Positions 1,573-20,190 of a stretch of DNA of 20,602 nt are shown here, piece by piece. Numbering within the stretch: position 1 is the stretch's first letter; each line of letters starts with the position of its first letter. The stretch lies in the NCBI RefSeq assembly GCF_006345805.1, contig NW_021823946.1, positions 1 through 20,602 on the forward strand, read 5' to 3'. The position numbers and the translations under genes were made by a program. Below the pieces are notes generated by a model. That model saw nothing but the letters and a program-made list of their open reading frames with translations, did no database searches and was not told the DNA's origin. This stretch comes from Octopus sinensis (taxonomy: Eukaryota).

Positions 1573-1574
1573 AA

Positions 1575-2125
1575 TGCCCTGATGCAAGATAAGGTAGTGG
1601 CTCTGATGGTTTCTGATGTTGACTGATTGAAAGTGTTATGTACATTGTTTTGCGTTGGTATGAAAGATGGGCTACAGCTAATATTCTGCTCAATACCACA
1701 TATTTGCTTGTCAGTTGTTTGACCTTAACCAGTTGAGCATGTCCCTTGGTGGCCGACAATATGTGCATCTCTGATTACGAGCAGAAGTAGTGGGGTGGGG
1801 GGCATATAGCCATATTTGAGGGAATTCTTTGGGGTTTGAATAATTCACCTCTGGAAATATGGGGTTTTTGTTCTCCTTAAACAAACCTTATTCAAAGACC
1901 CTTGTGCAGGATGGGCCACTCAACCTGAAGAAAATTCTAAACTGAGCCCACTTGCAAGGTCATGGGCTATTTATCTTGATATAAAATCACCATGTCGCGT
2001 ACATATGGTTGTGATGCATGTGCCTAGTGTACCCTTATCAGACAGGTAGTCATGATGGGTATACTGGGCTTCGTATATTTTATCCCAGTGTCTCTTTGAT
2101 GGCATGCACTGCTCTCTCGCTCAAT
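1575..2125 (+). mobile_element. ~550-bp dispersed non-coding repeat with (AAT)n tail, copy 1 (probable non-autonomous retroelement)
   Basis: Colinear end to end with 8482-9038 (shared atattctgctcaataccaca, tttgcttgtcagttgtttgacctt, ggtagtcatgatgggtatactgggcttcgtatatttta). Both copies start after (AAT)n and end in ctcaat followed by AAT repeats. Confidence 0.85.
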
Positions 2126-3370: not shown

Positions 3371-3573
3371 ATTTTAGCAAAAGAAATTAAAATAACCATT
3401 GAAATTAGGCGTGGCATGCCTGGCCTAACAGCTTTGAGATACCAGTTCCATTTCACTGTCTTTTGGGATGTGTGTGTTTGTATGTATGTGTGTATGTGTG
3501 TGTGTACCCGAATTAACGGACCTTTACGAAATAATTTAGGAAAAATCTATTTCATTTAAATCTCAAAGACACT

Positions 3574-4414
3574 TGTTGTTGGAGCGTAATATCCCCTAAA
3601 ATGGCGGATTTTACAACCCCTCGACTGCACTTTATGCCCATTGTTGACAGGAAGATAATTCAGATCTCCTTTAGAGGAAAGCAATGGATTTTTCTTTCAG
3701 GAAATAGGAGAAAAAATTGAGTTTTTCCAGTCCTTGGTCATGCAGAAGAGCGTAAACTGAGGGAACCTTTCTCCTGAAATTACTGCATGTAAATCCTGAG
3801 AAATAACTAGGAATACCATGAGACAGTGTGAGAACTACCCTAAAGAAAACTGAATTTGAATGACAGAATTCCCTTATTGAACTGGTGGATAATCTCAGCA
3901 ATTGCCTATAAGCGTTTGCACTGAGAGTTATGTAGGCATATATTTTTCCTGTTATATTATGCGTTATTATCTGGACAAGCGTAGCTAACTTTATCACTAA
4001 GAGTATCAAAAATTAGAGACATCAAAATTGAAAGGCTGATAAAACTAAGTTAGCTTCTAAACATTTCGGAAGCCGGGTGTGAGATTCTCTATATATCTAT
4101 CAGAGGACAGGGATATTTTCAGTGCAGCCTGTGATGCATATAGATAGGGTAAGCCTCCATGTTTGATCAACTCAAAAGAATGTTATCCTTAGATTCATGA
4201 AAAGTAGGCCTCCTGTTCATCTACAGCTGAGGTGGATGACTTGGAACGTTTCTCAGGAAGTTCCCAGCTATGTTCGAGTTTCTATTTAGGAGGAGGAAAT
4301 GTTCCTTCCTGCGTGGGAGTATGTCTTCTGGATACGTCAGAATGTTTGCATTGTCGGCTGGCAGAAGGCATCCAGTTGATGTTCGTACTGGTCCAAATAG
4401 TCATTTCGCTTCAG

Positions 4415-4415
<1 letters not shown>
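3574..4415 (-). mobile_element. decayed RTE-clade LINE reverse transcriptase fragment
   Basis: Minus-strand translation across stops and frameshifts gives, in the expected order: LFGPVRTSTGCLLPADNANILTYPEDILPRRKEHF-LLLNRNSN...PTFHE; FELIKHGGLP; NITGKIYAYITL..KRL*AIAE; FQEK; LPVNNG..GC..APT. These match RTE/BovB-type motifs (W.EHF..LLN, ELIK.GG, SIAGKIFARIL, RQLQEK, FPVNNGVKQGCVLAPT). Confidence 0.8.
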
Positions 4416-4458
<43 letters not shown>

Positions 4459-4459
<1 letters not shown>

Positions 4460-4777
4460 ATATGATATATGAGGTTCATTTAAAATAAAATAACGATTTT
4501 ATCAAGTGGTCAGCATGGAAAAAATAACCTTCAAAGGAAATAATTATTAAAATTATAAATTAGGGTATCTACGAAATACCACCATGCTGAAAATAGCAGC
4601 CATGATCTGACTCTAAAACCACCTTAACTGTCCATATATCAACATGGAGAGAAAACAAAGAGACAAGATGAAACTAGTAAAAAATTACTGGATAATTCTA
4701 GATCCCGGATTTCTGGATTTGCATTTAGGAATGCTTTGCCTCGTCAGTAGAATACACACAGAAAAGAAACATAAATA
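4459..4777 (-). mobile_element. hammerhead-containing non-coding module between two (TA)n tracts (Penelope-like pLTR / retrozyme-like)
   Basis: Bounded by (TA)n at 4417-4457 and 4778-4792; carries a type I hammerhead motif at 4695-4753. The family assignment is inference. Confidence 0.6.
4695..4753 (-). ncRNA. type I hammerhead ribozyme motif
   Basis: Minus strand reads attcta CTGACGA ggcaaagcattcctaaatgcaaatcca GAAA tccggga TC tagaat. Helix I attcta/tagaat is 6 bp perfect, the core is intact, helix III is near-palindromic ATCCGGGAT, and the cleavage triplet is AUC. Helix II closure is imperfect. Confidence 0.75.
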
Positions 4778-4942
4778 CATATATATATATATACAAAAAG
4801 CAATAAAGATTCAAGTTAATTTAAATGAATTTACTTGAATATGGTACCTAACTTAGATGCACCAAAAAAAACTATACTTTTTTAACAATACAGTAATGTG
4901 GGGTGATTATAAGCGAGAAAGAAGCAACAAGAATGGATAGGT

Positions 4943-5033
4943 TTTTAGTACAATCGTTTCATACAAGGACAGGCTTTATTAAAAGTTGTAAAAATTACAG
5001 CATATAAACGTGTCCCGTACTCATCAGCTAAAA
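4943..5033 (-). ncRNA. type I hammerhead ribozyme motif (left-arm copy)
   Basis: Reverse complement of 5243-5333, with helix III ACGATTGT instead of ACAATTGT. Confidence 0.75.
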
Positions 5034-5242
5034 TACATGTGAGTTCTCTAGACATCCTAGTGGTTGAGGCTATACTCATGAAGTAATGTAGATAATTAAG
5101 TAACATAAACAGATTTCCAAAGTTCCAAAGTTCCATTAAAGAACTTTAATGAACTTTGGAAATCTGTTTATGTTACTTAATTATCTACATTACTTCATGA
5201 GTATAGCCTCAACCACTAGGATGTCTAGAGAACTCACATGTA

Positions 5243-5333
5243 TTTTAGCTGATGAGTACGGGACACGTTTATATGCTGTAATTTTTACAACTTTTAATAA
5301 AGCCTGTCCTTGTATGAAACAATTGTACTAAAA
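5243..5333 (+). ncRNA. type I hammerhead ribozyme motif (right-arm copy)
   Basis: ttttag CTGATGA gtacgggaca..(tgtaatttttaca)..tgtccttgtat GAAA caattg TA ctaaaa. It has a 6-bp helix I, a long helix II, palindromic helix III ACAATTGT and triplet GUA. Confidence 0.8.
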
Positions 5334-5361
5334 ACCTATCCATCTTGTTGCTTCTTTCTCG

Positions 5362-5363
<2 letters not shown>

Positions 5364-5441
<78 letters not shown>
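5364..5441. repeat. pure (TA)n microsatellite
   Basis: Directly visible. Confidence 0.97.
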
Positions 5442-5442
<1 letters not shown>

Positions 5443-5514
5443 GACATACGAATACTTACATATACGAACGTATACCAATTCTCACTCGGTACGAGTTTTG
5501 CTTAAGTCCCCCTT

Positions 5515-5662
5515 GTACCCCTTAGCGGCCCGACAAAAGAGAACCGACAGAATAGGTAACTAATTTCTAAAAAACAAACAACAATTTATTCAACTAAAAC
5601 CACACTTTCAAGGAGGTGCCCCCGAAATGGCTGCGGTCCCTTGACTGAAATACGTAACAGTA
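5515..5662 (+). mobile_element. diverged 3' part of a SINE (same family as 13871-14246)
   Basis: cttagcggcccgacaaaagagaaccgacagaatagg matches the reverse complement of cttattctatcggtctcttttgccgaaccgctaa at ~13893-13926. Confidence 0.65.
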
Positions 5663-5689
5663 TATATTATATAAAATGTAATAAGCATC

Positions 5690-5815
5690 CGCACAATTTC
5701 CATCTCACAAGCTGCTAGCTGACTCAAGAGTCTAGAAGAAACTTTTAGCCTAACACGTCTTGGATCGAGCACAAGAACAGATGGTTCTGAAGCGAACTTT
5801 GTAAGTGCACTGGCA
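5690..5815 (-). mobile_element. highly diverged SINE head fragment
   Basis: ccatctcacaagctgctagctgactcaagagtctagaagaaactt aligns loosely with ccactcacaaggctttggttggcccgagagtatagaaaaagatactt at ~14109-14155. Confidence 0.4.
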
Positions 5816-6329
5816 CTTTGGCGTTTATTTGCTTGCTTGGTGTATATTTTTTTTTTTGGTTTATATTTATTTTGTGTTTTAATATCTTTATTATTGTGGT
5901 TTTGTTCTGTTTAATTTTTGTTTCTTACATTAAACGCTAATCAAGCATTTCCTTTCAGTAAAATGTGTAAATTAGAGATAAAAATATTCAATCTTGTTTT
6001 CCTGTGCATTGCATGTTGTCAAGAGGTGACGTGATAAAATAAACTAAAATAAAACAAAAGAAAGACACTAAAATAGGAAGACATCTTTTTTTTATATGAA
6101 TTGTAGTTAAAACTTTATTTTTGTTTTTTTGTGTTTTTTCTTCTAAATATGCTTTTACCTTTTATGATGAGAACTATTCATATATCTGTTTTTAATTTTT
6201 GTTATTTTTCATTCTATTTTTTTTTTGCATATTATCATCATTGTCTTCCATATAATTATACATACACAGATGCACACGTACACACACATGCATTCATACA
6301 CACGCACAAACACACATATACATAAGCAT

Positions 6330-6431
6330 AAATATACATACACATAATATAGATATATCCGTATATGTGTACATGTATACAATATATACATATATATGTA
6401 TATATCTATATATATAAATATGCGGGAATAT

Positions 6432-6475
<44 letters not shown>

Positions 6476-6560
6476 ATACATACATACATACATATATAGG
6501 CGTGTAAATGTGTGTGTGTATATATGTGTGTGTGTGTGTGTTTGTGTGTGGGTGTGTACT
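6330..6560. repeat. (TA)n/(TG)n compound microsatellite
   Basis: Directly visible. Confidence 0.9.
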
Positions 6561-7108
6561 TTTCTAAATTTTATCTTTAAAAATGAATATTCTGAAAATT
6601 ACTTTTCTGAGCTTTTTAGTTTATGTTGTAATACTTATTTTTATTTTTTTCATTTGTTGTTGTTAAGATGGTAAAATTCTTTAAAAATTCTAAAATAATT
6701 TTTTTTAATTTTGTAATTTTTTTAAAATTTATTTTCGCATCTAAAATGCTTATTTATCTTCTTTTTTTTTAATCTTTTTATCTCAAGTAATTCTATTGGT
6801 ATTCATTATATTTATTTTCACATTTTTTTTATTCATTATCTTGTTGTCATTGTTGCTGTTGTTTTCTTTTTTTATTATTTATCCACTTATTTGATATTTT
6901 TGTTTTTTTTATTTTTCGTTTCTCTTGCTTCCTTTAAGTTTCACGCTGAAAGTAGAAGAAAAAGTTATCAATTATTATTTTTTTATATAATTTATTTTGT
7001 ATATAAAAAAAACTTAAAATTTTTATTGTTTTTTGTATCATTTTGGCTTCTTATTTGTTCCTTTTTTTGTTGCTGTTGTTATTCCTGGATGAGCTGTCAC
7101 TCTTGGTG

Positions 7109-7110
<2 letters not shown>

Positions 7111-7181
<71 letters not shown>

Positions 7182-7389
7182 AAATATTTTACTATCATTA
7201 TTGTTATTACTCTGACTGTTATTATTATCATAGCCTATTGTTTTTATTTTAAGTGTCATCATCATCCTCACCATCATCATCATCAACATCATCATCATTA
7301 TTACAACTATTAATATTATTATTATGTCTATTATAATCGCTGTTGTTATTATCATCATTATCCTATTATTTTATTACTATTTATTATTA

Positions 7390-7421
<32 letters not shown>

Positions 7422-7443
7422 GTTATTATTATCATTATTATCC

Positions 7444-7495
<52 letters not shown>

Positions 7496-7587
7496 ATCAG
7501 CAGCATAGCTGCTGTCATTATTATTATTATCACTATTATTTTTTATCATTATTATTATTATTATTGTTATCATCATCGTCATCATCG

Positions 7588-7618
<31 letters not shown>

Positions 7619-7635
7619 TATCATCATCACCATCT
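7111..7635. repeat. (ATT)n/(CAT)n compound microsatellite tract
   Basis: Directly visible. Confidence 0.95.
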
Positions 7636-8063
7636 ATAATAGTTCTAGTAATAATTTAGTTGTTGTCGTTATCAAATTCACTTAACTTATTTGAAATTTT
7701 AATTTTGATTTTCACATATTTTCTTTTTTGTTCTTATTTTTGTTATAAGTTAATATTCAGAAGTAATTAGTTTTATGGCTAATTAGGAAAAATGGCTATT
7801 GAACGCAATTACAATATCGAAATGGCAATCAGGACGATAATGAAAAGGAGCAGGAATAGGATGAGGAGTGGGAGAAGAGTGTGGGGGTGAGTGGAGTAGG
7901 ATGATGATGATGATGATTATGGTGACGATGATGATGATGATGATGAAGGAAGCGATAGGAAGGAAGGTAGTACTTCTATCACTACAGTCACAACTACATC
8001 TATAAGAGTTACTGATAATAAAATACTACTACTACTACAACTACTACTACTACTAACTACTAC

Positions 8064-8099
<36 letters not shown>

Positions 8100-8126
8100 T
8101 AATAATAATAATTGTTTTTGTTGTTG

Positions 8127-8322
8127 CCTCAATTTCGGCACAAGGGGAGGAGATTAGCAGATAGTATCGACCGAGGTATTTGACTTGTACTTTATTTTAT
8201 CGACCCCCCGCTAAAAGAATGAAAAGCAGATTGACCTCTGCGGGATTTGAACCCGGAGAAGAGCCCGAACAAATGCTGCCAGCCAATTTTCCGGCGGCTA
8301 ACTATTCTGCCTGTGCATCACC
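8127..8322 (-). mobile_element. old diverged tRNA-derived SINE
   Basis: tactttattttatcgacccc...atgaaaagcagattgacctctgcgggatttgaacc...ctaactattctgcc aligns with the SINE at 19961-20190. A B-box-like GGTTCAAATCC lies on the minus strand. Flanked by (AAT)n. Confidence 0.75.
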
Positions 8323-8385
8323 ATAATAATAACAATAACAACAACAGCAGGAGGGGGTAGCAACAGCAACAACAACAACAACAAC

Positions 8386-8478
<93 letters not shown>

Positions 8479-8481
8479 AAT
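8323..8481. repeat. (AAC)n/(AAT)n microsatellite
   Basis: Directly visible. Confidence 0.95.
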
Positions 8482-9038
8482 TGCCCAGATGCAGTATTAG
8501 GCAGTGGCTTTCATGCCTTCTGATCTTAACTGATTGGAAGTGTTATCATGTACATTGTTTTGTCATGGTATAAAAGATGGGCCACAGCAAATATTCTGCT
8601 CAATACCACAGGTTTGCTTGTCAGTTGTTTGACCTTTACCTGTTGAGCATGTCCTTTGGTTGTTGGCGCTATGTGGATCTCTGATCACAAGCAGAAGTAG
8701 TGGAGGAGCATCATAGCCATGTGTTGAGAGGAATTCTTTGCAGCTTGAATAATTCACCTCTGGAAACATGGGTGTTTCGTTCAACATCCTTAAACAAACC
8801 TTATTCAGGGACCTTTAGAGCGGGATTGTTACTCGACCAGAAGAAAATTCTAACTGGGCCCCACCTGCAAGATCATGTGCTGTTTATCTTGATATGAGAT
8901 CACCATGTCGCGCACCTATGGTTGGGATGCATGTGCCTGGTGTACCCTTATCAGACGGGTAGTCATGATGGGTATACTGGGCTTCGTATATTTTACTCCA
9001 GTGTCATTTTGATGGCATGCTCTGCTCGCTCACTCAAT
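8482..9038 (+). mobile_element. ~550-bp dispersed non-coding repeat with (AAT)n tail, copy 2
   Basis: Colinear with 1575-2125 in the same orientation. Confidence 0.85.
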
Positions 9039-9147
9039 AATAATTATGTATTTGTGTACATGTGTACATGGTAGGGTGTGCAAGCAAAAGAAAAATGTTG
9101 GCAGTGACTTCGGAGTTTCTTGATATTATGTGTGCATACACAATAAT

Positions 9148-9243
9148 GTATATATGTGTATATATATACATATATATACATATTATTATATAAACATATA
9201 TAACTATATATATATATATATATATAATATATATATATATAAT

Positions 9244-9301
<58 letters not shown>
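9148..9301. repeat. interrupted (TA)n microsatellite
   Basis: Directly visible. Confidence 0.95.
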
Positions 9302-9308
<7 letters not shown>

Positions 9309-9813
9309 TCGAAGGGAAATGAAATTAATAGAAATTTTTCCTTCCAGTGGTAAAAATTTTTTTCATTTCGTTGCTGTCGAATTTTCTCCTTAATTTTGTG
9401 GTTATAGAACCTAGCTGTTCTTTCTAGCGTGTTGAATTCCCTGTGTTTAAATGTACACTGTATATATATACATATATATATATATTGCACTTATAGTTAT
9501 ATCTATGTATGATTCTGTGTGTGTGCGTCTGTGTGTGTTTGCGTGTGTATGTGTGAGTGAGTGTGTGTGTCTCTGTGTGTGTGTGTGTGTGTGTGTATGC
9601 GTATCGAAACACGAATAATTTTACGTTCAATCTAGACAAATTGCTCGCAATCGACAGGCCACACAAGAACAAATTCATACTCAGATACTGGAGACCAGCA
9701 GCATCAACATCATCTTCTCCTCTGCTCCTTATCCTTTATCGATCTTTATCTTATACTGTTATAGGTCTTCCCACTGTGTTTCTCCCAAGTGTGCATGTGC
9801 GTGTGTCTGTGTT

Positions 9814-9849
<36 letters not shown>

Positions 9850-10028
9850 TATTCGGACAGATTTTAGTATCTTCTTTCGAAGTGGTGATGGTGGTGGTGA
9901 TGGTGGTGGTGATGGTTGTGGTGGTGGTGAGATCTATAGTATTTTTACATCATATAGAGACAAATTTCATTTGTAGCTGTGTATACATACATACAAACAC
10001 ACGTACAAAAATATATGTATATAAGCGG

Positions 10029-10074
<46 letters not shown>

Positions 10075-10577
10075 CAGAGAGAGAGTTATACATTATATAT
10101 TGATTTATAAAGACATTATATATCTATCTATATATAATATATAATATATATTATATATTATATATATTTATATATATATCTATATACAGTGAGAGAGAGA
10201 GAGAGAGAGAGAGAAAGAGCAGGAGGGGAAAGAGAGGGGGAGAGAGGGATACATACACACATCATGCGCATATCACTGAAAGACATATATTACGTTTGAT
10301 GCCATCGATTTTCTGACACGAAATCTTTCAGTAGTGTTGTTACTGATAGAAATGTGATGACGACGTCCTAACAACCTTAGTCACATTTAAATATACATTT
10401 TTCAGCAGTATTAAAAATCTATAACATGTTCGCCTCTTCATCATTGTAATAATAACTCGTTCTTTATTGGTCACAAGGGCTCGATATAGAATACAACCTG
10501 TGCCGTACAAAGGCGATTACAAAACGTATGAGATTTATAGATGAATAGAACTTGGGTACAATCGGGAATAGAATATA

Positions 10578-10742
10578 TTCTCTTCTACTCTAGGCACAAG
10601 GCCTGAAATATTGGAGGAGGGGCCAGTCGATTAATCGACCCCAGTACGCAACTGGTACTTAATTTATCGATCCCGAAGGGATGAAAGGCATAGTCGACCC
10701 AGGCGGAATTTGATCTCAGAACGTAAGGACAGGCGAAAGACC
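10578..10742 (-). mobile_element. tRNA-derived SINE, 5'-truncated, alternative 3' tail
   Basis: Shares the core actggtacttaatttatcga...atgaaaggca.agtcgacc..ggcggaatttga.ctcagaacgtaa with the other copies, but its tail is ttctcttctactctaggcacaaggcctgaaat. Confidence 0.9.
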
Positions 10743-10932
10743 TATTTCTATTTCTTTACTACCCACAAGGGGCTAAATACAGAGAGGACAAACAAGGACA
10801 GACAAACGGCTTAAGTCGATTATATCGACCCCAGTGCGTAAGTGGTACTTATTTAATCGAGCCTGAAAGGATAAAAGGCAAAGTCGACCTCGGCGGAATT
10901 TGAACTCAGAACGTAACGACAGACGAAATACC
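10743..10932 (-). mobile_element. tRNA-derived SINE, 5'-truncated
   Basis: Closely similar to 19961-20142; ends at gacgaaatacc. Confidence 0.9.
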
Positions 10933-11026
10933 TACTTCTTTACTACCCACAAGGGGCTAAACAAGGACAGACAAACGGATTAAGTCGATTACATCGACTC
11001 CAGTGCGTAACTGGTACTTAATTTAT
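10933..11026 (-). mobile_element. tRNA-derived SINE 3' half, cut off by the adjacent hairpin element
   Basis: Matches 19961-20067 with a short internal deletion. Confidence 0.9.
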
Positions 11027-11413
11027 GTATTACATCAGTTTTAAATGTCGAGCAATCTTCAGCAGAGAGGTTAATTTCATCATTAAGTGGTAGTATGTTC
11101 TTAATGATGAAATTAACCTCTCTGTCTATATATCTACCCTCTTTGTAATGTTAGCAAATGAAATAAGTTGTCCGTTTAATCAAAAACTTGTATATGTGGC
11201 TGAAGATTGCTCGACATTTTAAAACTGATGTAGTACTTACAGTGTTTAATAAAATGATGTAGCATAAAACAATTGTACTACACTACCTTGGATATTCTTG
11301 TTGTTTATTTTTATTATAATCACCCCATTTGATTTATATGGATAATACCATACGAAATTCTGATGCCTTTAACTTAAGTACCATAGTCATCTGAATCTAA
11401 ATTTTGCTGAACT
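11027..11413 (+). mobile_element. hammerhead-containing pLTR-like module with nested inverted repeats
   Basis: Outer IR 11027-11063/11199-11236; perfect 25-bp inner IR 11063-11087/11100-11124; hammerhead motif at 11195-11282. The module ends at (TA)n and shares downstream motifs with 4793-5033(-). Confidence 0.7.
11195..11282 (+). ncRNA. type I hammerhead motif with mutated core (GAAA>AAAA)
   Basis: tgtgg CTGAAGA ttgctcgacatttta...taaaatgatgtagcat AAAA caattg TA ctaca. It has the same ACAATTGT helix III and GUA triplet as 5243-5333. Confidence 0.65.
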
Positions 11414-11453
11414 TATATATATCTTTATATATATATGTATGTATGTATGTATG

Positions 11454-11488
<35 letters not shown>

Positions 11489-11515
11489 GATATATAACAC
11501 ACATATTATATATAC

Positions 11516-11546
<31 letters not shown>

Positions 11547-11589
11547 CATACATATAATATATATAGTGTTATTATAGATTATATACATC

Positions 11590-11625
<36 letters not shown>

Positions 11626-11643
11626 ATATACATAAACACATAT

Positions 11644-11692
<49 letters not shown>

Positions 11693-11792
11693 CACGATGC
11701 TACAACTTGAAAGTCGTATCTTTCTTAGCCTTTTTAGAATTCCCAGCATAAAATATACGTGTGTGTGTGCTTGTGTGCGTGCTTGTGTGTGT

Positions 11793-11835
<43 letters not shown>

Positions 11836-11851
11836 TGTGTGTGTGTGTGTG
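11414..11851. repeat. (TA)n, (TATG)n and (TG)n microsatellites with a short unique spacer
   Basis: Directly visible. Confidence 0.9.
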
Positions 11852-12065
11852 CTAGCACTTACTTCCATTTCATCTTACAACTAACAAACCAATTTTTCAT
11901 TAAACATCAAATTACTTCAATTTTACGCATCAAATATGTCTTTAATAAAATTTTTTGCAACACTGTCCAAGTAATCATCGTTTCTTCTTCTCCTTTCTTT
12001 TATTTTTCATTTCCTTAATGCGTAATTATTCCGGACTACGAACGTGTATCAATAGTACATCAATC

Positions 12066-12136
12066 TTATTCAACAATCTGATGAGCCATAGGCGAAACCT
12101 GAAGAACCTTATGCATATATCAGATATATTGAATAA
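12066..12136 (+). ncRNA. type I hammerhead ribozyme motif, compact helix II
   Basis: ttattcaacaat CTGATGA gcc-ata-ggc GAAA cctga...tcaga TA tattgaataa. The core is canonical with a G-C closed 3-bp helix II; helix I ttattcaa/ttgaataa has an imperfect proximal part; helix III has one mismatch. Confidence 0.75.
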
Positions 12137-12470
12137 ATTAACATAATCACTCTGTGCAGCCTTCTTGCTCATTGAATGGAACAGCAGTTATGCATACCAA
12201 AAGTTGACTTCCTATAGGCAAATATCTATATGTGTGTCTGATACACACAGACGTGCATGTCTGTGTGAATGTGTGCGTGTCTATGAGTGTGTGTGTGTTT
12301 GTGTATGCGTGCGACTGTATATGCATGTATATATGTATGTATCAACATACAAACTAATATTTGCTTATAGAAATATACATTGTATGATTGTATGTATGCT
12401 TATGTAAACATATACATACATATATATATAAGTAATATATACATACGTATATAAATTATATACACACACG

Positions 12471-12530
<60 letters not shown>

Positions 12531-12989
12531 GGGAGTATAACTCCAAACTTACAGGGGAAAATTCAATTTAGTATTGAATCAAATTTCACAATATAAATAT
12601 ATATACTTAAAAATCTATATTTTTTTCTATCAATAAACATATAACTAATAAATAGATTTGTCCATTATTACTTACATAAGTATTATAGATATCTTTAGAA
12701 AAAATTTAGGAAATACAATTAAAGAATTGAAGAATTCCAAATTAAAAACGTATAGCCTATCTTTATAAAATACTTATTATTACTATTATTAAAAACACTT
12801 TACGATCTAGAGAGGAAAGTGACTAACTAATATCTTAAAATTTACATTCAGATATAATAATTAAATAAATGTACATATCTAAATTATCATTAACAAATAA
12901 TAAAATTATAAATTCATATTCAACAATCAATAGTTATATAGAGTACAATACTATTTCTTAAATAAAAAAGTTTACTTATCTCTCAAAAA

Positions 12990-13657
12990 GCGTATCAATT
13001 TTCGTCGCCAGAAATGATTCGGTAAAGAAATCGTTGCTTGCGTCAATGATTTGAGCGGTGACGAGCAAGCAAACCAGCGGAGATTGTGGCTCGTTGATTT
13101 TTTGTTGTTGTCACTTAAAGCATGCGGAACACATGCTCCATACTTCTGAACCTTTCCCACCGATTGAAGATGCTTCTATATGGCAGTGTGGGAGCATTCC
13201 ATTTTCTCTGCCAGTTCCCTTGTCGTTTGACGAGAATATTCGTGCAAAAGTTGGTTAAATCGCTCTTCATCGAACTCGACTGGACGGCCTTAACGAGGTG
13301 CGTCTTTGAGGTCAAAATTTCCATATTTGAACTTGGCATTCCAATCACGAGCGGTTCTTTCAGCTATGGCACCCTCTTCATACACAGCACAAATGTCGCG
13401 AGCAGCTTTTTTACGGCCTTAGAACCTTGATTAAAATCAAAAAGAAGGTGTCGAAAATGCTCGTTTTTCTTAACTTGACATTCTATTTTAATGATCTGAA
13501 AATAAACAAAATCTTACTAAAATTAACTAGAAAAAAAAAACAGATTCCAAAATTATTCAAACATAGAATTGTCGAACAAAAAATAGATTTCAAAATTTAA
13601 AAACGCAATAAATTCCAAAATTTAAAAAATGGTGGAAACTTAGTTGACAACCCAATA
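12990..13657 (-). mobile_element. 5' half of a decayed mariner (Tc1/mariner) DNA transposon
   Basis: TA + TIR ttgggttgtcaactaagtttccaccattttt on the minus strand (13655-13625), followed by a transposase pseudogene. Truncated just after the first catalytic Asp; no second TIR. Confidence 0.92.
12993..13486 (-). pseudogene. mariner transposase N-terminal half (HTH domains to first catalytic D)
   Basis: (I)ECQVKKNEHFRHLLFDFNQGSKA..AARDICAVYEEGAIAERTARDWNAKFKYGNFDLKDAPR*GRPVEFDEE..QTTRELAEKMECSHTAI*KHLQSVGKVQKYGACVPHALS..RFLYRIISGDEN. This contains the mariner GRP, WVPHEL-like and TGDEKW-like motifs. The ATG is mutated to ATA, with stops and frameshifts. Confidence 0.92.
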
Positions 13658-13702
13658 TATAAAACTATATATATACATATATATATAATCTATATATATA
13701 AT

Positions 13703-13732
<30 letters not shown>

Positions 13733-13733
<1 letters not shown>

Positions 13734-13873
13734 CTTTATTTAAAAGCAGAAGAAAATATAACAAGCTGTTGTTCAGAGTTTCACGTTCATCGGACAGTTT
13801 TGTTAAAATTTTAAGAACCTCTCCGATGACCGGGAACGTGAATTCTGTGTAACAGATTTTGTTATATTTTCTT
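13733..13873. mobile_element. small fold-back element with degenerate hammerhead-like motif in both arms
   Basis: IR aagaaaatataacaa(13750)...ttgttatattttctt(13873). The minus arm reads ctgt CCGATGA acgt GAAA ctctgaac aacag and the plus arm CCGATGA ccgggaacgt GAAT tctgtg TA acag. Abuts (TA)n. Confidence 0.55.
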
Positions 13874-14246
13874 ATTCTTTGTAAGCCTAGGACTTATTCT
13901 ATCGGTCTCTTTTGCCGAACCGCTAATTTACAGGGACGTAAGCACACCAGCATCGGTTGTCAAGCGATGCTGGAGGGGACAAACACAGACACACAAATAT
14001 ATATACTACATGTACATATATATATTATATATATATATATATATTATATATATATATATACATACATACATATATACGACGAGTTTCTTTCAGTTCCCAT
14101 CAACCAATCCACTCACAAGGCTTTGGTTGGCCCGAGAGTATAGAAAAAGATACTTGCCCAAGGTGTCATGCAGTGGGACTGAATCCAAAACAATGTGGTC
14201 CGTAAGCAAGCTACTTACTACTTACCATACAGCCACTCCTACGCCT
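13871..14246 (-). mobile_element. tRNA-derived SINE with internal (TA)n, 3'-truncated
   Basis: The minus strand starts aggcgtaggagTGGCTGTATGGTAAG (A box) ... GGATTCAGTCCC (B-box-like), then caccttgggcaagt (CORE/MIR-like motif), an internal microsatellite, and a 3' body shared with 5515-5662. Confidence 0.85.
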
Positions 14247-16309: not shown

Positions 16310-16537
16310 GGCGAGCTGTCAGAAACGTTAGCACGCCGGGCGAAATGCGTAGCAGTATTTCGTCTGCCGTTACGTTCTGAGTTCAAATTCCGCCGAGGTT
16401 GACTTTGCCTTTCATCCTTTCGGGGTCGATAAATTAAGTACCAGTTACGCACTGGGGTCGATGTATTCGACTTAATCCGTTTGTCTGTCCTTGTTTGTCC
16501 CCTCTATGTTTAGCCCCTAATGAGTAGTAAAGAAACA
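16310..16537 (+). mobile_element. near full-length tRNA-derived SINE with 15-bp TSD
   Basis: A-box-like TGTCAGAAACGTT, B-box-like GAGTTCAAATTCC, core gactttgcctttcatcctttcggggtcgataaattaagtaccagt. Flanked by the direct repeat gatatctcagttgag at 16296-16310 and 16538-16552. Confidence 0.95.
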
Positions 16538-16789
16538 GATATCTCAGTTGAGATACTGATAGTTGGAAATCAATCCAACAGACACGGAAATGTCACGAAC
16601 AAGGCTTGTCCCAGACGCATTTTGAACGACAAAACTGTTCTGTACGAAATCGTTCGGTGTCTGATCATTGTTTGCCCATGGATTTATGTTCAACGGCGGA
16701 TCCAGCAAGCAGCCAAGTCCACCGTGTCGATTATCTGACCGTCTTTCTTCGGTTGGAAAGCGAGGGTCCTTATTGCACGACTGATCACT

Positions 16790-16850
16790 ATGGCGAAAGT
16801 GCGTGCATGGCGAAAGGGCGTGCATGGCGAAAGGGCGTGCATAGCAAAGA
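16790..16850 (+). repeat. 17-bp tandem repeat x3.5 (atggcgaaagggcgtgc)
   Basis: Units at 16790, 16807, 16824 and a partial unit at 16841. Confidence 0.95.
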
Positions 16851-17330
16851 GGACACAAAGCAGAGGCAACGAATCCTTCGCATTTTTCAAGTCCCTAATA
16901 CCTCTTTGATGGTTCTTTTGATGGATGTGGATGGTGAGGGGCCAACCCGCAGTAAATTTACAAAAACCTGGGTGTGAGGGAGGCGAGCAAGAGCCCAGGG
17001 GATGAATCTGTTTAGTTCATGTGCCCTTAGGCCCTAATGATAATCAGGAATCTGCAGAGTTCGTTGATTCGACCCCAAGTGGCAGCATCAAACTCTATTG
17101 AGATTTTCTTCATTTCATTTCCGTTAATAGAGTTTTTTTTATATTTTCCGTGCCCCGTTTTTCTCATCATAGATTCTGTGAGTTGTAAACCCCCAATTTT
17201 TTATAATACACACACATACATAGAAACACACATACACACACACGGACACGGGCACACTCACACACACACACCATTTTATGTGTTTCGGAATGTCCCTTCA
17301 TCCGTCACCCTTGTGGCAAATCTTAAAGAA

Positions 17331-19373: not shown

Positions 19374-19445
19374 ATAGAAACGTACATTAGATACACACGA
19401 CACACGACATCTGAATATATATATTATATATATATATATATATAT

Positions 19446-19499
<54 letters not shown>

Positions 19500-19516
19500 T
19501 ATTATATGTATAGATA

Positions 19517-19574
<58 letters not shown>

Positions 19575-19713
19575 ATATATATATATATAATATATATTTT
19601 ATATATATATATACATATATATATACATGTATATTATATATATATATATATATCTATATATATATATATATTCAGATGTCGTGTGTCGTGTGTATCTAAT
19701 GTACGTTTTCTAT
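19374..19713. repeat. ~42-bp inverted repeat enclosing ~255 bp of interrupted (TA)n
   Basis: atagaaacgtacattagatacacacgacacacgacatctgaa (19374-19414) versus ttcagatgtcgtgtgtcgtgtgtatctaatgtacgttttctat (19671-19713), with one homopolymer indel. Confidence 0.95.
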
Positions 19714-19768
19714 ATGAATATATATATATATTTTATATATATATATATACATACACACACACACACAC

Positions 19769-19804
<36 letters not shown>

Positions 19805-19835
19805 TCATATATATATATATATATTATATATATAA

Positions 19836-19888
<53 letters not shown>

Positions 19889-19960
19889 GTGTGTGTGTTG
19901 TGTGGTGTGTGTATGTATATATATATATTAAAAATATATATATATATTCATATATATTTT

Positions 19961-20190
19961 TTTCTTTACTACCCACAAGGGGCTAAACATAGAGGAGACA
20001 AACAAGGACAGATACACGGATTAAGTCGATTACATCGACCCCAATGCGTAACTGGTACTTAATTTATCGACCCCGAAAGGATCAAAGGCAAAGTCGACCT
20101 CAGTGGAATTTGAACTCAGAACGTAACAACAGACGAAATACCACTAAGCATTTCGCCCGGCGTGCTAACGATTCTGCCAGCTCGCCACCT
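19961..20190 (-). mobile_element. full-length tRNA-derived SINE
   Basis: Reverse complement of the 16310-16537 family, with A box TGGCAGAATCGTT and B box GAGTTCAAATTCC. Confidence 0.95.

What the first reader, a model, noticed from the sequence alone, without database searches (positions are those of the whole stretch)
4459..13873. Five divergent hammerhead-ribozyme modules lodged at microsatellites within 10 kb: candidate family of self-cleaving, microsatellite-associated retroelements
Seen: type I hammerhead topology (helix I-CUGANGA-helix II-GAAA-helix III-NUH-helix I') occurs at 4695(-), 4943(-)/5243(+), 11195(+), 12066(+) and degenerately at 13766/13823. Helix sequences differ between loci but pairing is kept, which is covariation-like evidence. 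All modules are non-coding, ~140-400 bp, and end at (TA)n (12066: TA/TG repeats); three are folded into inverted repeats. Established: Penelope-like elements carry minimal type I hammerheads with short palindromic helix III in their pseudo-LTRs, and often have inverted 5'-truncated pLTRs; non-autonomous retrozymes also exist. Inference: this genome holds many distinct, probably unannotated, ribozyme-bearing pLTR/retrozyme families that accumulate in TA repeats. No Penelope RT or GIY-YIG ORF is visible in the window.
Basis: partly seen in the sequence, partly recalled or inferred. Interest (0 to 1): 0.85.

Follow-up and report, generated by a model that had tools for sequence, protein, structure and literature searches.

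The report
Penelope-type hammerhead stumps in TA repeats
These short self-cutting-RNA motifs are real and are most likely the leftover tail ends of several Penelope-type jumping genes pasted into TA repeats, a kind already known in animals; only one of the five is intact, cutting is untested, and one likely RNA sample shows editing-like changes at the motif's catalytic letters.

Summary
The motifs exist, but only module B (4943-5033 minus, 5243-5333 plus; two arms of one hairpin) passes a strict type I hammerhead descriptor (0 of 200 shuffles). A has an extra A, C has GAAA changed to AAAA, D needs two lesions, E reads CCGAUGA. B and C are one lineage, so there are four lineages. A and B are very abundant repeats (about 2,800 contigs in each of two DNA runs); family variants give a two-sided change in A's helix I and restore its helix II. 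D found no copies. Head-to-head arms, a one-sided tail and (TA)n ends match Penelope-like insertions in print (PMC8557442, PMC3846280, PMC4209133). No parent ORF or tandem unit was found. One presumed-RNA run shows sense-strand A-to-G changes, including B's A15.1 and cleavage-site A17; a second does not, and no matched DNA exists. This scan noted the same architecture before on other DNA of this genome (e1-9514361, e1-8807173) and edited Penelope hairpins elsewhere. Verdict: new members of a known kind.

The parts
4460..4778 (-). Module A: 5'-truncated copy of a high-copy repeat between (TA)n 4420-4457 and (TA)7 4779-4792
   Evidence: (contig cover 4474-4761)
4695..4753 (-). Hammerhead A: helix I 6 bp, CUGACGA 4747-4741, stem II with inner hairpin, extra A at 4714, GAAA 4713-4710, near-palindromic helix III, AUC triplet (H17 = 4701)
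   Evidence: family variants 4699, 4716, 4717 and loose end at 4724
4794..5140 (-). Module B left arm, with about 115 nt of 3' extension (4794-4909) that the right arm lacks
4943..5033 (-). Hammerhead B left: intact core, 60-nt stem-loop II, helix III with one G.U, GUA triplet; A15.1 = 4957, A17 = 4949
5136..5365 (+). Module B right arm, ending in (TA)39 at 5364-5441; 225 of 232 columns identical to the left arm
5243..5333 (+). Hammerhead B right: intact core, helix I 6 bp, 60-nt stem-loop II, palindromic helix III, GUA triplet
11022..11089 (-). Module C left arm: inverted, internally deleted partial copy with CUGAAGA at 11062, cut off by a SINE-like repeat
11090..11411 (+). Module C right arm: diverged relative of B including the 3' extension (213 of 343 columns identical, z 11.6), ending at the TA array 11414-11692
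11195..11282 (+). Hammerhead C: 59-nt stem-loop II, A at the G12 position (11266), palindromic helix III; predicted inactive copy
12066..12136 (+). Module D: CUGAUGA, 3-bp stem II, GAAA, long helix III with one mismatch, helix I slipped by 1 nt; no copies found; ends undefined
13735..13812 (-). Module E left arm: degenerate motif (CCGAUGA at 13793), ending at TA array 13655-13733
13808..13880 (+). Module E right arm: degenerate motif (CCGAUGA at 13823), 58 of 79 columns identical to the left arm

Best explanation
The modules are most likely 5'-truncated 3' ends (pseudo-LTRs) of at least four lineages of Penelope-type retroelements, which a Penelope endonuclease and reverse transcriptase would have pasted into TA repeats, often as two head-to-head arms. 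Shown: A and B are very abundant repeats; B, C and E are head-to-head pairs; copies of A are often inverted; most ends abut (TA)n; B's core is intact and A's family keeps its helices. Inferred from described elements: the endonuclease nicks AT-rich DNA, reverse transcription starts at one of two internal sites (one arm with, one without the extension) and stops early. The palindromic helix III predicts cleavage as a dimer in tandem transcripts or with protein help, not from a solitary stump; in B a read-through transcript is predicted to be a hairpin of about 220 bp that buries the ribozyme. C, D and E are likely decayed copies. Whether the donors of A and B encode their own enzymes is not known.
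For: Strict motif above chance. 2,790 and 2,764 contigs laid on 4460-5140 in two DNA runs; summed depth 1e4-1e6 against 23-114 for single listed contigs (not a copy number). Family A: 4699 T>C at 60-83% plus the loose end at 4724 give a two-sided change in helix I; 4717 A>C (89-100%) extends helix II to 3 bp; N7 varies. 13 of the 15 joints shown (of 20) join opposite strands within A. B and C share length and nested hairpin of stem II and the extension at 62% identity. Helix III self-duplexes -4.2 to -9.9 kcal/mol. Print: inverted 5'-truncated copy, one-sided tail, microsatellite bias (PMC8557442), head-to-head palindromic junctions (PMC3846280), opposite-strand and solitary minimal hammerheads (PMC4209133), AT-rich nicking and two start sites (PMC11167929). 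Weak lead: C's 5' end reads LNDEINLSVYI, and Neptune endonucleases end in GLNE/GLNG/GLNR.
Against: No parent RT or GIY-YIG ORF was found and no genome could be searched. The extension of B/C is about 115 nt, not the 30-40 nt described. B lacks the unpaired H after A9 and the G10.1-C11.1 pair of the PLE consensus, and its stem II is far longer. D has no copies at 80% identity in two DNA and two presumed-RNA runs. E-plus and D do not end at (TA)n. No target-site duplication is readable. The isolated motifs do not fold as hammerheads by minimum energy.
Confidence: 0.66

Rival explanations
1. A and/or B are pieces of non-autonomous tandem retrozymes (units of a few hundred bases that self-cleave and circularise) mobilised in trans by Penelope enzymes; the window holds only partial monomers.
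For: B's upstream family sequence shows no recognisable protein end in the loose ends (read by eye); helix I is 6 bp and helix III 2 bp plus a palindromic loop, like canonical animal type I motifs; many small presumed-RNA runs hold about 0.4 of the words; retrozymes derive from pLTRs (bioRxiv 10.64898/2026.07.22.740005); earlier scan notes describe such units in this genome (unchecked).
Against: No tandem unit in the window; no joint returning from the 3' to the 5' part of B among the 15 joints shown (the unit may exceed the stretch); no look-alike of A, B, D or E among the scan's noted stretches.
Confidence: 0.24
2. For D and E only: the motifs are chance or unrelated decayed sequence in AT-rich DNA, not ribozyme relics.
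For: D has no copies; its half motif occurs in 11 of 500 shuffled windows; E has C at U4 in both arms and neither arm is complete; neither aligns with A, B or C.
Against: D's full lesion-tolerant pattern 0 of 500 shuffles (post hoc); E is a head-to-head pair ending at (TA)n like B, and the two arms complement each other to a type I layout (read by eye). One search also missed D's own locus, so its blank is weak.
Confidence: 0.15
3. The hairpins are fold-back or MITE-like DNA elements, or the TA tracts grew next to the inserts afterwards, so that neither retrotransposition by Penelope enzymes nor targeting is involved.
For: B is a near-perfect 450-nt fold-back; the window is rich in TA tracts (46% of positions within 300 nt).
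Against: Inversion points vary among copies of A, arms have unequal 3' ends, copies are 5'-truncated, and junctions lie within 3 nt of TA where the base rate within 10 nt is 4%.
Confidence: 0.05

Closest known systems
Hammerheads in pLTRs of metazoan Penelope-like elements (Cervera and De la Pena 2014, PMC4209133; seen: parts 1-2 of 4 of the text, supplement file 2 part 2; file 1 not searchable)
   Same: Type I order, palindromic helix III, many unrelated families per genome, mostly solitary copies, pairs on opposite strands 100-700 bp apart; one row of Fig. S3 reads AGAAA like module A (row not identifiable).
   Different: B/C have a 59-60-nt stem-loop II (described helix II 7-8 bp with short loops), G.U or U.U at its base and no unpaired H after A9; no octopus entry in the file searched.
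Insertion units of EN+ Penelope-like elements, esp. Neptune and Naiad (Craig et al. 2021, PMC8557442; seen: passages, supplement search and parts 54-55; Arkhipova et al. 2013, PMC3846280; passages)
   Same: 5' truncation, adjacent inverted copy with palindromic junction, extension on one arm only, bias for (TA)n.
   Different: Extension about 115 nt rather than 30-40; no ORF seen; Naiads are reported to lack canonical hammerheads whereas B is canonical in order.
Poseidon element PAc of Anolis (Frangieh et al. 2024, PMC11167929; seen: parts 1-2 of 4)
   Same: AT-rich target, two internal start sites giving ends with and without a tail, hammerhead in the pLTR.
   Different: There the ORF starts inside the hammerhead and cleavage needs the protein; neither is shown here.
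Animal non-LTR retrozymes (PMC7229834, passages; bioRxiv 10.64898/2026.07.22.740005, part 1 of 5 and passages, supplements closed)
   Same: Non-coding, type I hammerhead, abundant, present in presumed-RNA runs.
   Different: Defined by head-to-tail units and circular RNA; no tandem unit here.
ADAR hyper-editing of repeat-derived dsRNA (PMC5625713, passages)
   Same: A-to-G clusters in palindromic repeats, very high in octopus.
   Different: Here the signal is on the ribozyme-sense strand only and hits two core positions; one run.

Membership tests
Type I hammerhead ribozyme | CUGANGA, GAAA, NUH with helices I-III in C-G-S order | tested here: met
   Met by both arms of B. A needs one extra A; C, D, E fail the strict test.
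Type I hammerhead ribozyme | Compensatory changes among homologous copies | tested here: met
   A helix I two-sided change; B versus C stem II kept at 62% identity; helix III variants CAAUUG, CGAUUG and a G at 4952 in 26% of X4 depth (the partner position 4955 is not among the 40 of 73 rows shown).
Type I hammerhead ribozyme | Site-specific self-cleavage | not testable with these tools
   Contigs cannot show RNA ends; a 245-nt X10 contig spans B's site uncut.
PLE minimal hammerhead consensus | Unpaired H after A9 and G10.1-C11.1 pair | tested here: not met
   B: no H, G.U pair; A: G-C pair, no H, extra A on the 3' side; consensus has exceptions lacking H.
EN+ Penelope-like element | ORF with RT and GIY-YIG endonuclease linked to the pLTR | tested here: inconclusive
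   None in 12 ORFs or two stretches in six frames; C-peptide search blank; upstream of A and B not retrievable.
EN+ Penelope-like element | Inverted 5'-truncated copy at the 5' end | tested here: met
   B, C, E in the window; opposite-strand joints in A copies.
EN+ Penelope-like element | Tail on one arm only (30-40 bp described) | tested here: inconclusive
   One-sided extension present in B but about 115 nt; depth drops near 4897-4910 in X2, less in X4 (depth is not copy number).
EN+ Penelope-like element (Neptune/Naiad) | Insertion bias for (TA)n | tested here: inconclusive
   6 of 8 ends examined at or next to TA tracts in this window; partly circular; no genome-wide flank count.
Non-LTR retrozyme | Head-to-tail units each with a hammerhead | tested here: not met
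   None in the window; elsewhere in the genome not testable.
Non-LTR retrozyme | Circular monomeric RNA | not testable with these tools
   Only contigs of runs guessed to be RNA.
Non-circularly permuted hammerheads (SGC, CSG, GCS; PMC10085705, passages) | Blocks in a non-circular order | tested here: not met
   Search over all six orders returned only the two C-G-S hits of B.

The most novel reading that the evidence does not exclude
B/C are a structural variant of the Penelope hammerhead with a conserved 60-nt stem II, and host ADAR edits the sense RNA at A15.1 and the cleavage-site A17 in about 30% of depth, so that RNA editing acts as an off-switch on a natural, very abundant ribozyme.
Probability: 0.12. 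Interest if true: 0.72.

Novelty: new member of a known kind. Interest (0 to 1): 0.36.

Why it matters
As it stands the window shows how densely an octopus-like genome is littered with hammerhead-bearing Penelope-type ends; my three searches joining Penelope or retrozyme hammerheads with octopus or cephalopod returned no paper devoted to such families, so they may be unannotated. The young, abundant B family offers a test substrate for two open questions: what the pLTR hammerhead does, and how the two-armed insertion forms. If the editing signal holds with matched DNA, it would be a natural ribozyme whose core is recoded by ADAR; a search for that (listing only) showed engineered cases only.

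Tried and rejected
Whole-genome search: no genome held. Rfam: no hammerhead in the 150 of 199 rows shown. Minimum-energy folding of seven motifs: six unremarkable, D z -2.7 but in a non-hammerhead fold. Metagenome scan for B's pattern: 0 hits. Scan notes by sequence for B, E, D, A: nothing. Scrambled block orders, a lead from earlier notes: not found. D against four runs: 3, 6, 0, 0 contigs, all on a CT-rich stretch outside the motif; its own locus was not recovered either, so absence is not shown. Protein search with C's 42-aa 5' frame: no candidate (weak). Pfam: no RT or GIY-YIG in 12 ORFs or in 3510-4415 and 16540-17200 in six frames; the rest of the window was not scanned this way. No run is on record as RNA ('no RNA holder listed'); RNA labels are guesses. 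Cross-locus helix differences as covariation: rejected, loci are not homologous except B/C. A possible splice acceptor (AG just before CUGA in B) was noticed; no joint supports it.
Full report
Setting. The window is AT-rich animal DNA full of microsatellites, SINE-like repeats and a mariner remnant (Mos1 HTH, E 1.4e-7). I call it octopus-like from recalled repeat motifs and from earlier scan notes; no call named the organism, run labels are coded and no genome is held.

Observation. A strict type I descriptor finds two cores, +5249 and -5027, the two arms of one inverted repeat (module B); 0 of 200 block-wise dinucleotide shuffles reach two. Allowing one extra base before GAAA adds A (-4747); allowing AAAA adds C (+11200); 0 of 200 shuffles reach those counts. 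D (+12078) needs a mismatch in helix III and a one-base slip in helix I: 0 of 500 shuffles under a descriptor fitted to it afterwards, 11 of 500 for its half motif. E reads CCGAUGA in both arms; a type I layout appears only when both arms are read together by eye. A search over all six block orders gave only B, in the ordinary order. Pairwise alignment shows B and C are homologous (213 of 343 columns, z 11.6), while A, B/C, D and E are not (best cross z 3.4). So five modules are four lineages, and helix differences between lineages are not covariation.

Repeat status. Laying 4460-5140 on four of the 24 listed runs gave 2,790 and 2,764 contigs in two presumed-DNA runs and 222 and 147 in two presumed-RNA runs; summed depth over A and B was 1e4-1e6 in the DNA runs against 23-114 for single listed contigs (the tool warns this is no copy number). 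For A, 4699 T>C (60-83%) together with the loose-end consensus at 4724 turns a U-A pair of helix I into C-G; 4717 A>C (89-100%) and 4716 G>A make a 3-bp helix II; no deletion of the extra A is listed, though 33 of 73 substitution rows are hidden. One row of Fig. S3 of PMC4209133 also reads AGAAA. Thirteen of the 15 joints shown join opposite strands within A at varying places, so inverted copies of A are common though this copy has none. For B, helix III varies among palindromic or near-palindromic forms.

Anatomy. B is a head-to-head pair with a palindromic junction near 5138; the right arm stops at 5365 in (TA)39, the left runs about 115 nt further to (TA)7, behind which A begins. C carries the same extension and the same long stem II (59 versus 60 nt, same nested hairpin). 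Depth drops near 4897-4910 in X2 and less in X4, a weak hint of two preferred 3' ends. Six of eight ends examined lie at TA tracts against a 4% base rate within 10 nt, partly circular. This is the insertion unit described for endonuclease-bearing Penelope-like elements: 5' truncation, adjacent inverted copy, one-sided tail, microsatellite bias (PMC8557442, passages; PMC3846280, passages), with hammerheads that are mostly solitary or paired on opposite strands (PMC4209133). In vitro, the Anolis element nicks AT-rich DNA and starts reverse transcription at two internal sites that define the tail; its ribozyme cleaves only with the protein and is dispensable for insertion (PMC11167929). Differences here: longer extension, much longer stem II, no unpaired H after A9. 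C's 5' end reads LNDEINLSVYI, like the GLNE/GLNG/GLNR end of Neptune endonucleases; this is a three-residue lead and a protein search with it was blank.

Mechanism. Most likely, Penelope-type endonuclease nicks (TA)n on both strands, the RNA's 3' region is copied from two start sites onto the two ends, and early stops leave head-to-head stumps (inferred). Self-complementary helix III (duplex -4.2 to -9.9 kcal/mol) predicts dimeric cleavage in tandem transcripts; a read-through of B is predicted to be one long hairpin (-378 kcal/mol) that buries the core. The main rival is that A or B are pieces of non-coding tandem retrozymes moved by the same enzymes; nothing here separates the two, and the bioRxiv preprint read (supplements closed) argues they are related anyway.

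Editing-like signal. In run X18, T>C changes number 21 of 64 places, against 5 of 30, 5 of 30 and 5 of 41 in the other runs (Fisher p 0.006 against all three, 0.08 against the same organism's DNA run). Among the 40 rows shown, 11 are at 10% or more in X18 and under 1% in both DNA runs; 8 are T>C and none A>G (p 0.0009); all 8 have U or A as 5' neighbour on the ribozyme-sense strand (p 0.04). Two fall on B's A15.1 (30%, 11 contigs) and A17 (29%, 7 contigs). This fits A-to-I editing of sense transcripts, common in repeats and very high in octopus (PMC5625713, passages); G at the cleavage position is not cut and inosine is expected to resemble it (PMC3923133, passages), so impairment is predicted, not shown. 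Against: one run; X10 shows nothing; RNA is a guess; no matched DNA; a two-armed hairpin should be edited on both arms and the antisense arm has more A (238 versus 168), so the strand bias is unexplained; an expressed edited-and-reinserted subfamily, as earlier notes describe elsewhere (unchecked), remains possible.

Novelty and verdict. The kind is known and this scan has reported the same two-armed TA insertions on other DNA of this genome. Searches showed no paper on these octopus families or on a 60-nt stem II in pLTR hammerheads (listings only; subscription papers, Repbase and Dfam were not seen). New members of a known kind with two mild structural variants and one lead. Interest 0.36.

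Noticed in passing
window 12526-13660 (minus): Decayed mariner transposon; HTH_48 Mos1 domain E 1.4e-7 with stops read as X.
   Followed up: partly
window 10590-11020, 16310-16542, 19954-20186: Several copies of one SINE-like repeat, 88-91% alike; the copy at 10590-11020 is partly tandem and cuts off C's left arm.
   Followed up: no
window 1574-2120 and 8483-9040: Two copies of a roughly 550-bp repeat, each flanked by (AAT)n or (AAC)n tracts; read by eye, not aligned.
   Followed up: no
window 19380-19420 and 19670-19712: A short unique stretch is inverted around the long TA array 19415-19886, seen by eye.
   Followed up: no
window 5243-5248 and 5028-5033: Helix I of B ends in a U-rich AG directly before CUGA with a branch-like CUCAC upstream; in Drosophila Penelope an intron end maps to helix I. 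No spliced joint seen.
   Followed up: partly
runs X10 and X18 at window 5094: A second B subfamily diverges upstream of 5094 with the same loose end in both presumed-RNA runs; by eye it resembles C's 5' part more than the window's B does.
   Followed up: no
run X18 on window 4566-4635: Six editing-like T>C sites in the 3' part of module A, downstream of its ribozyme.
   Followed up: partly
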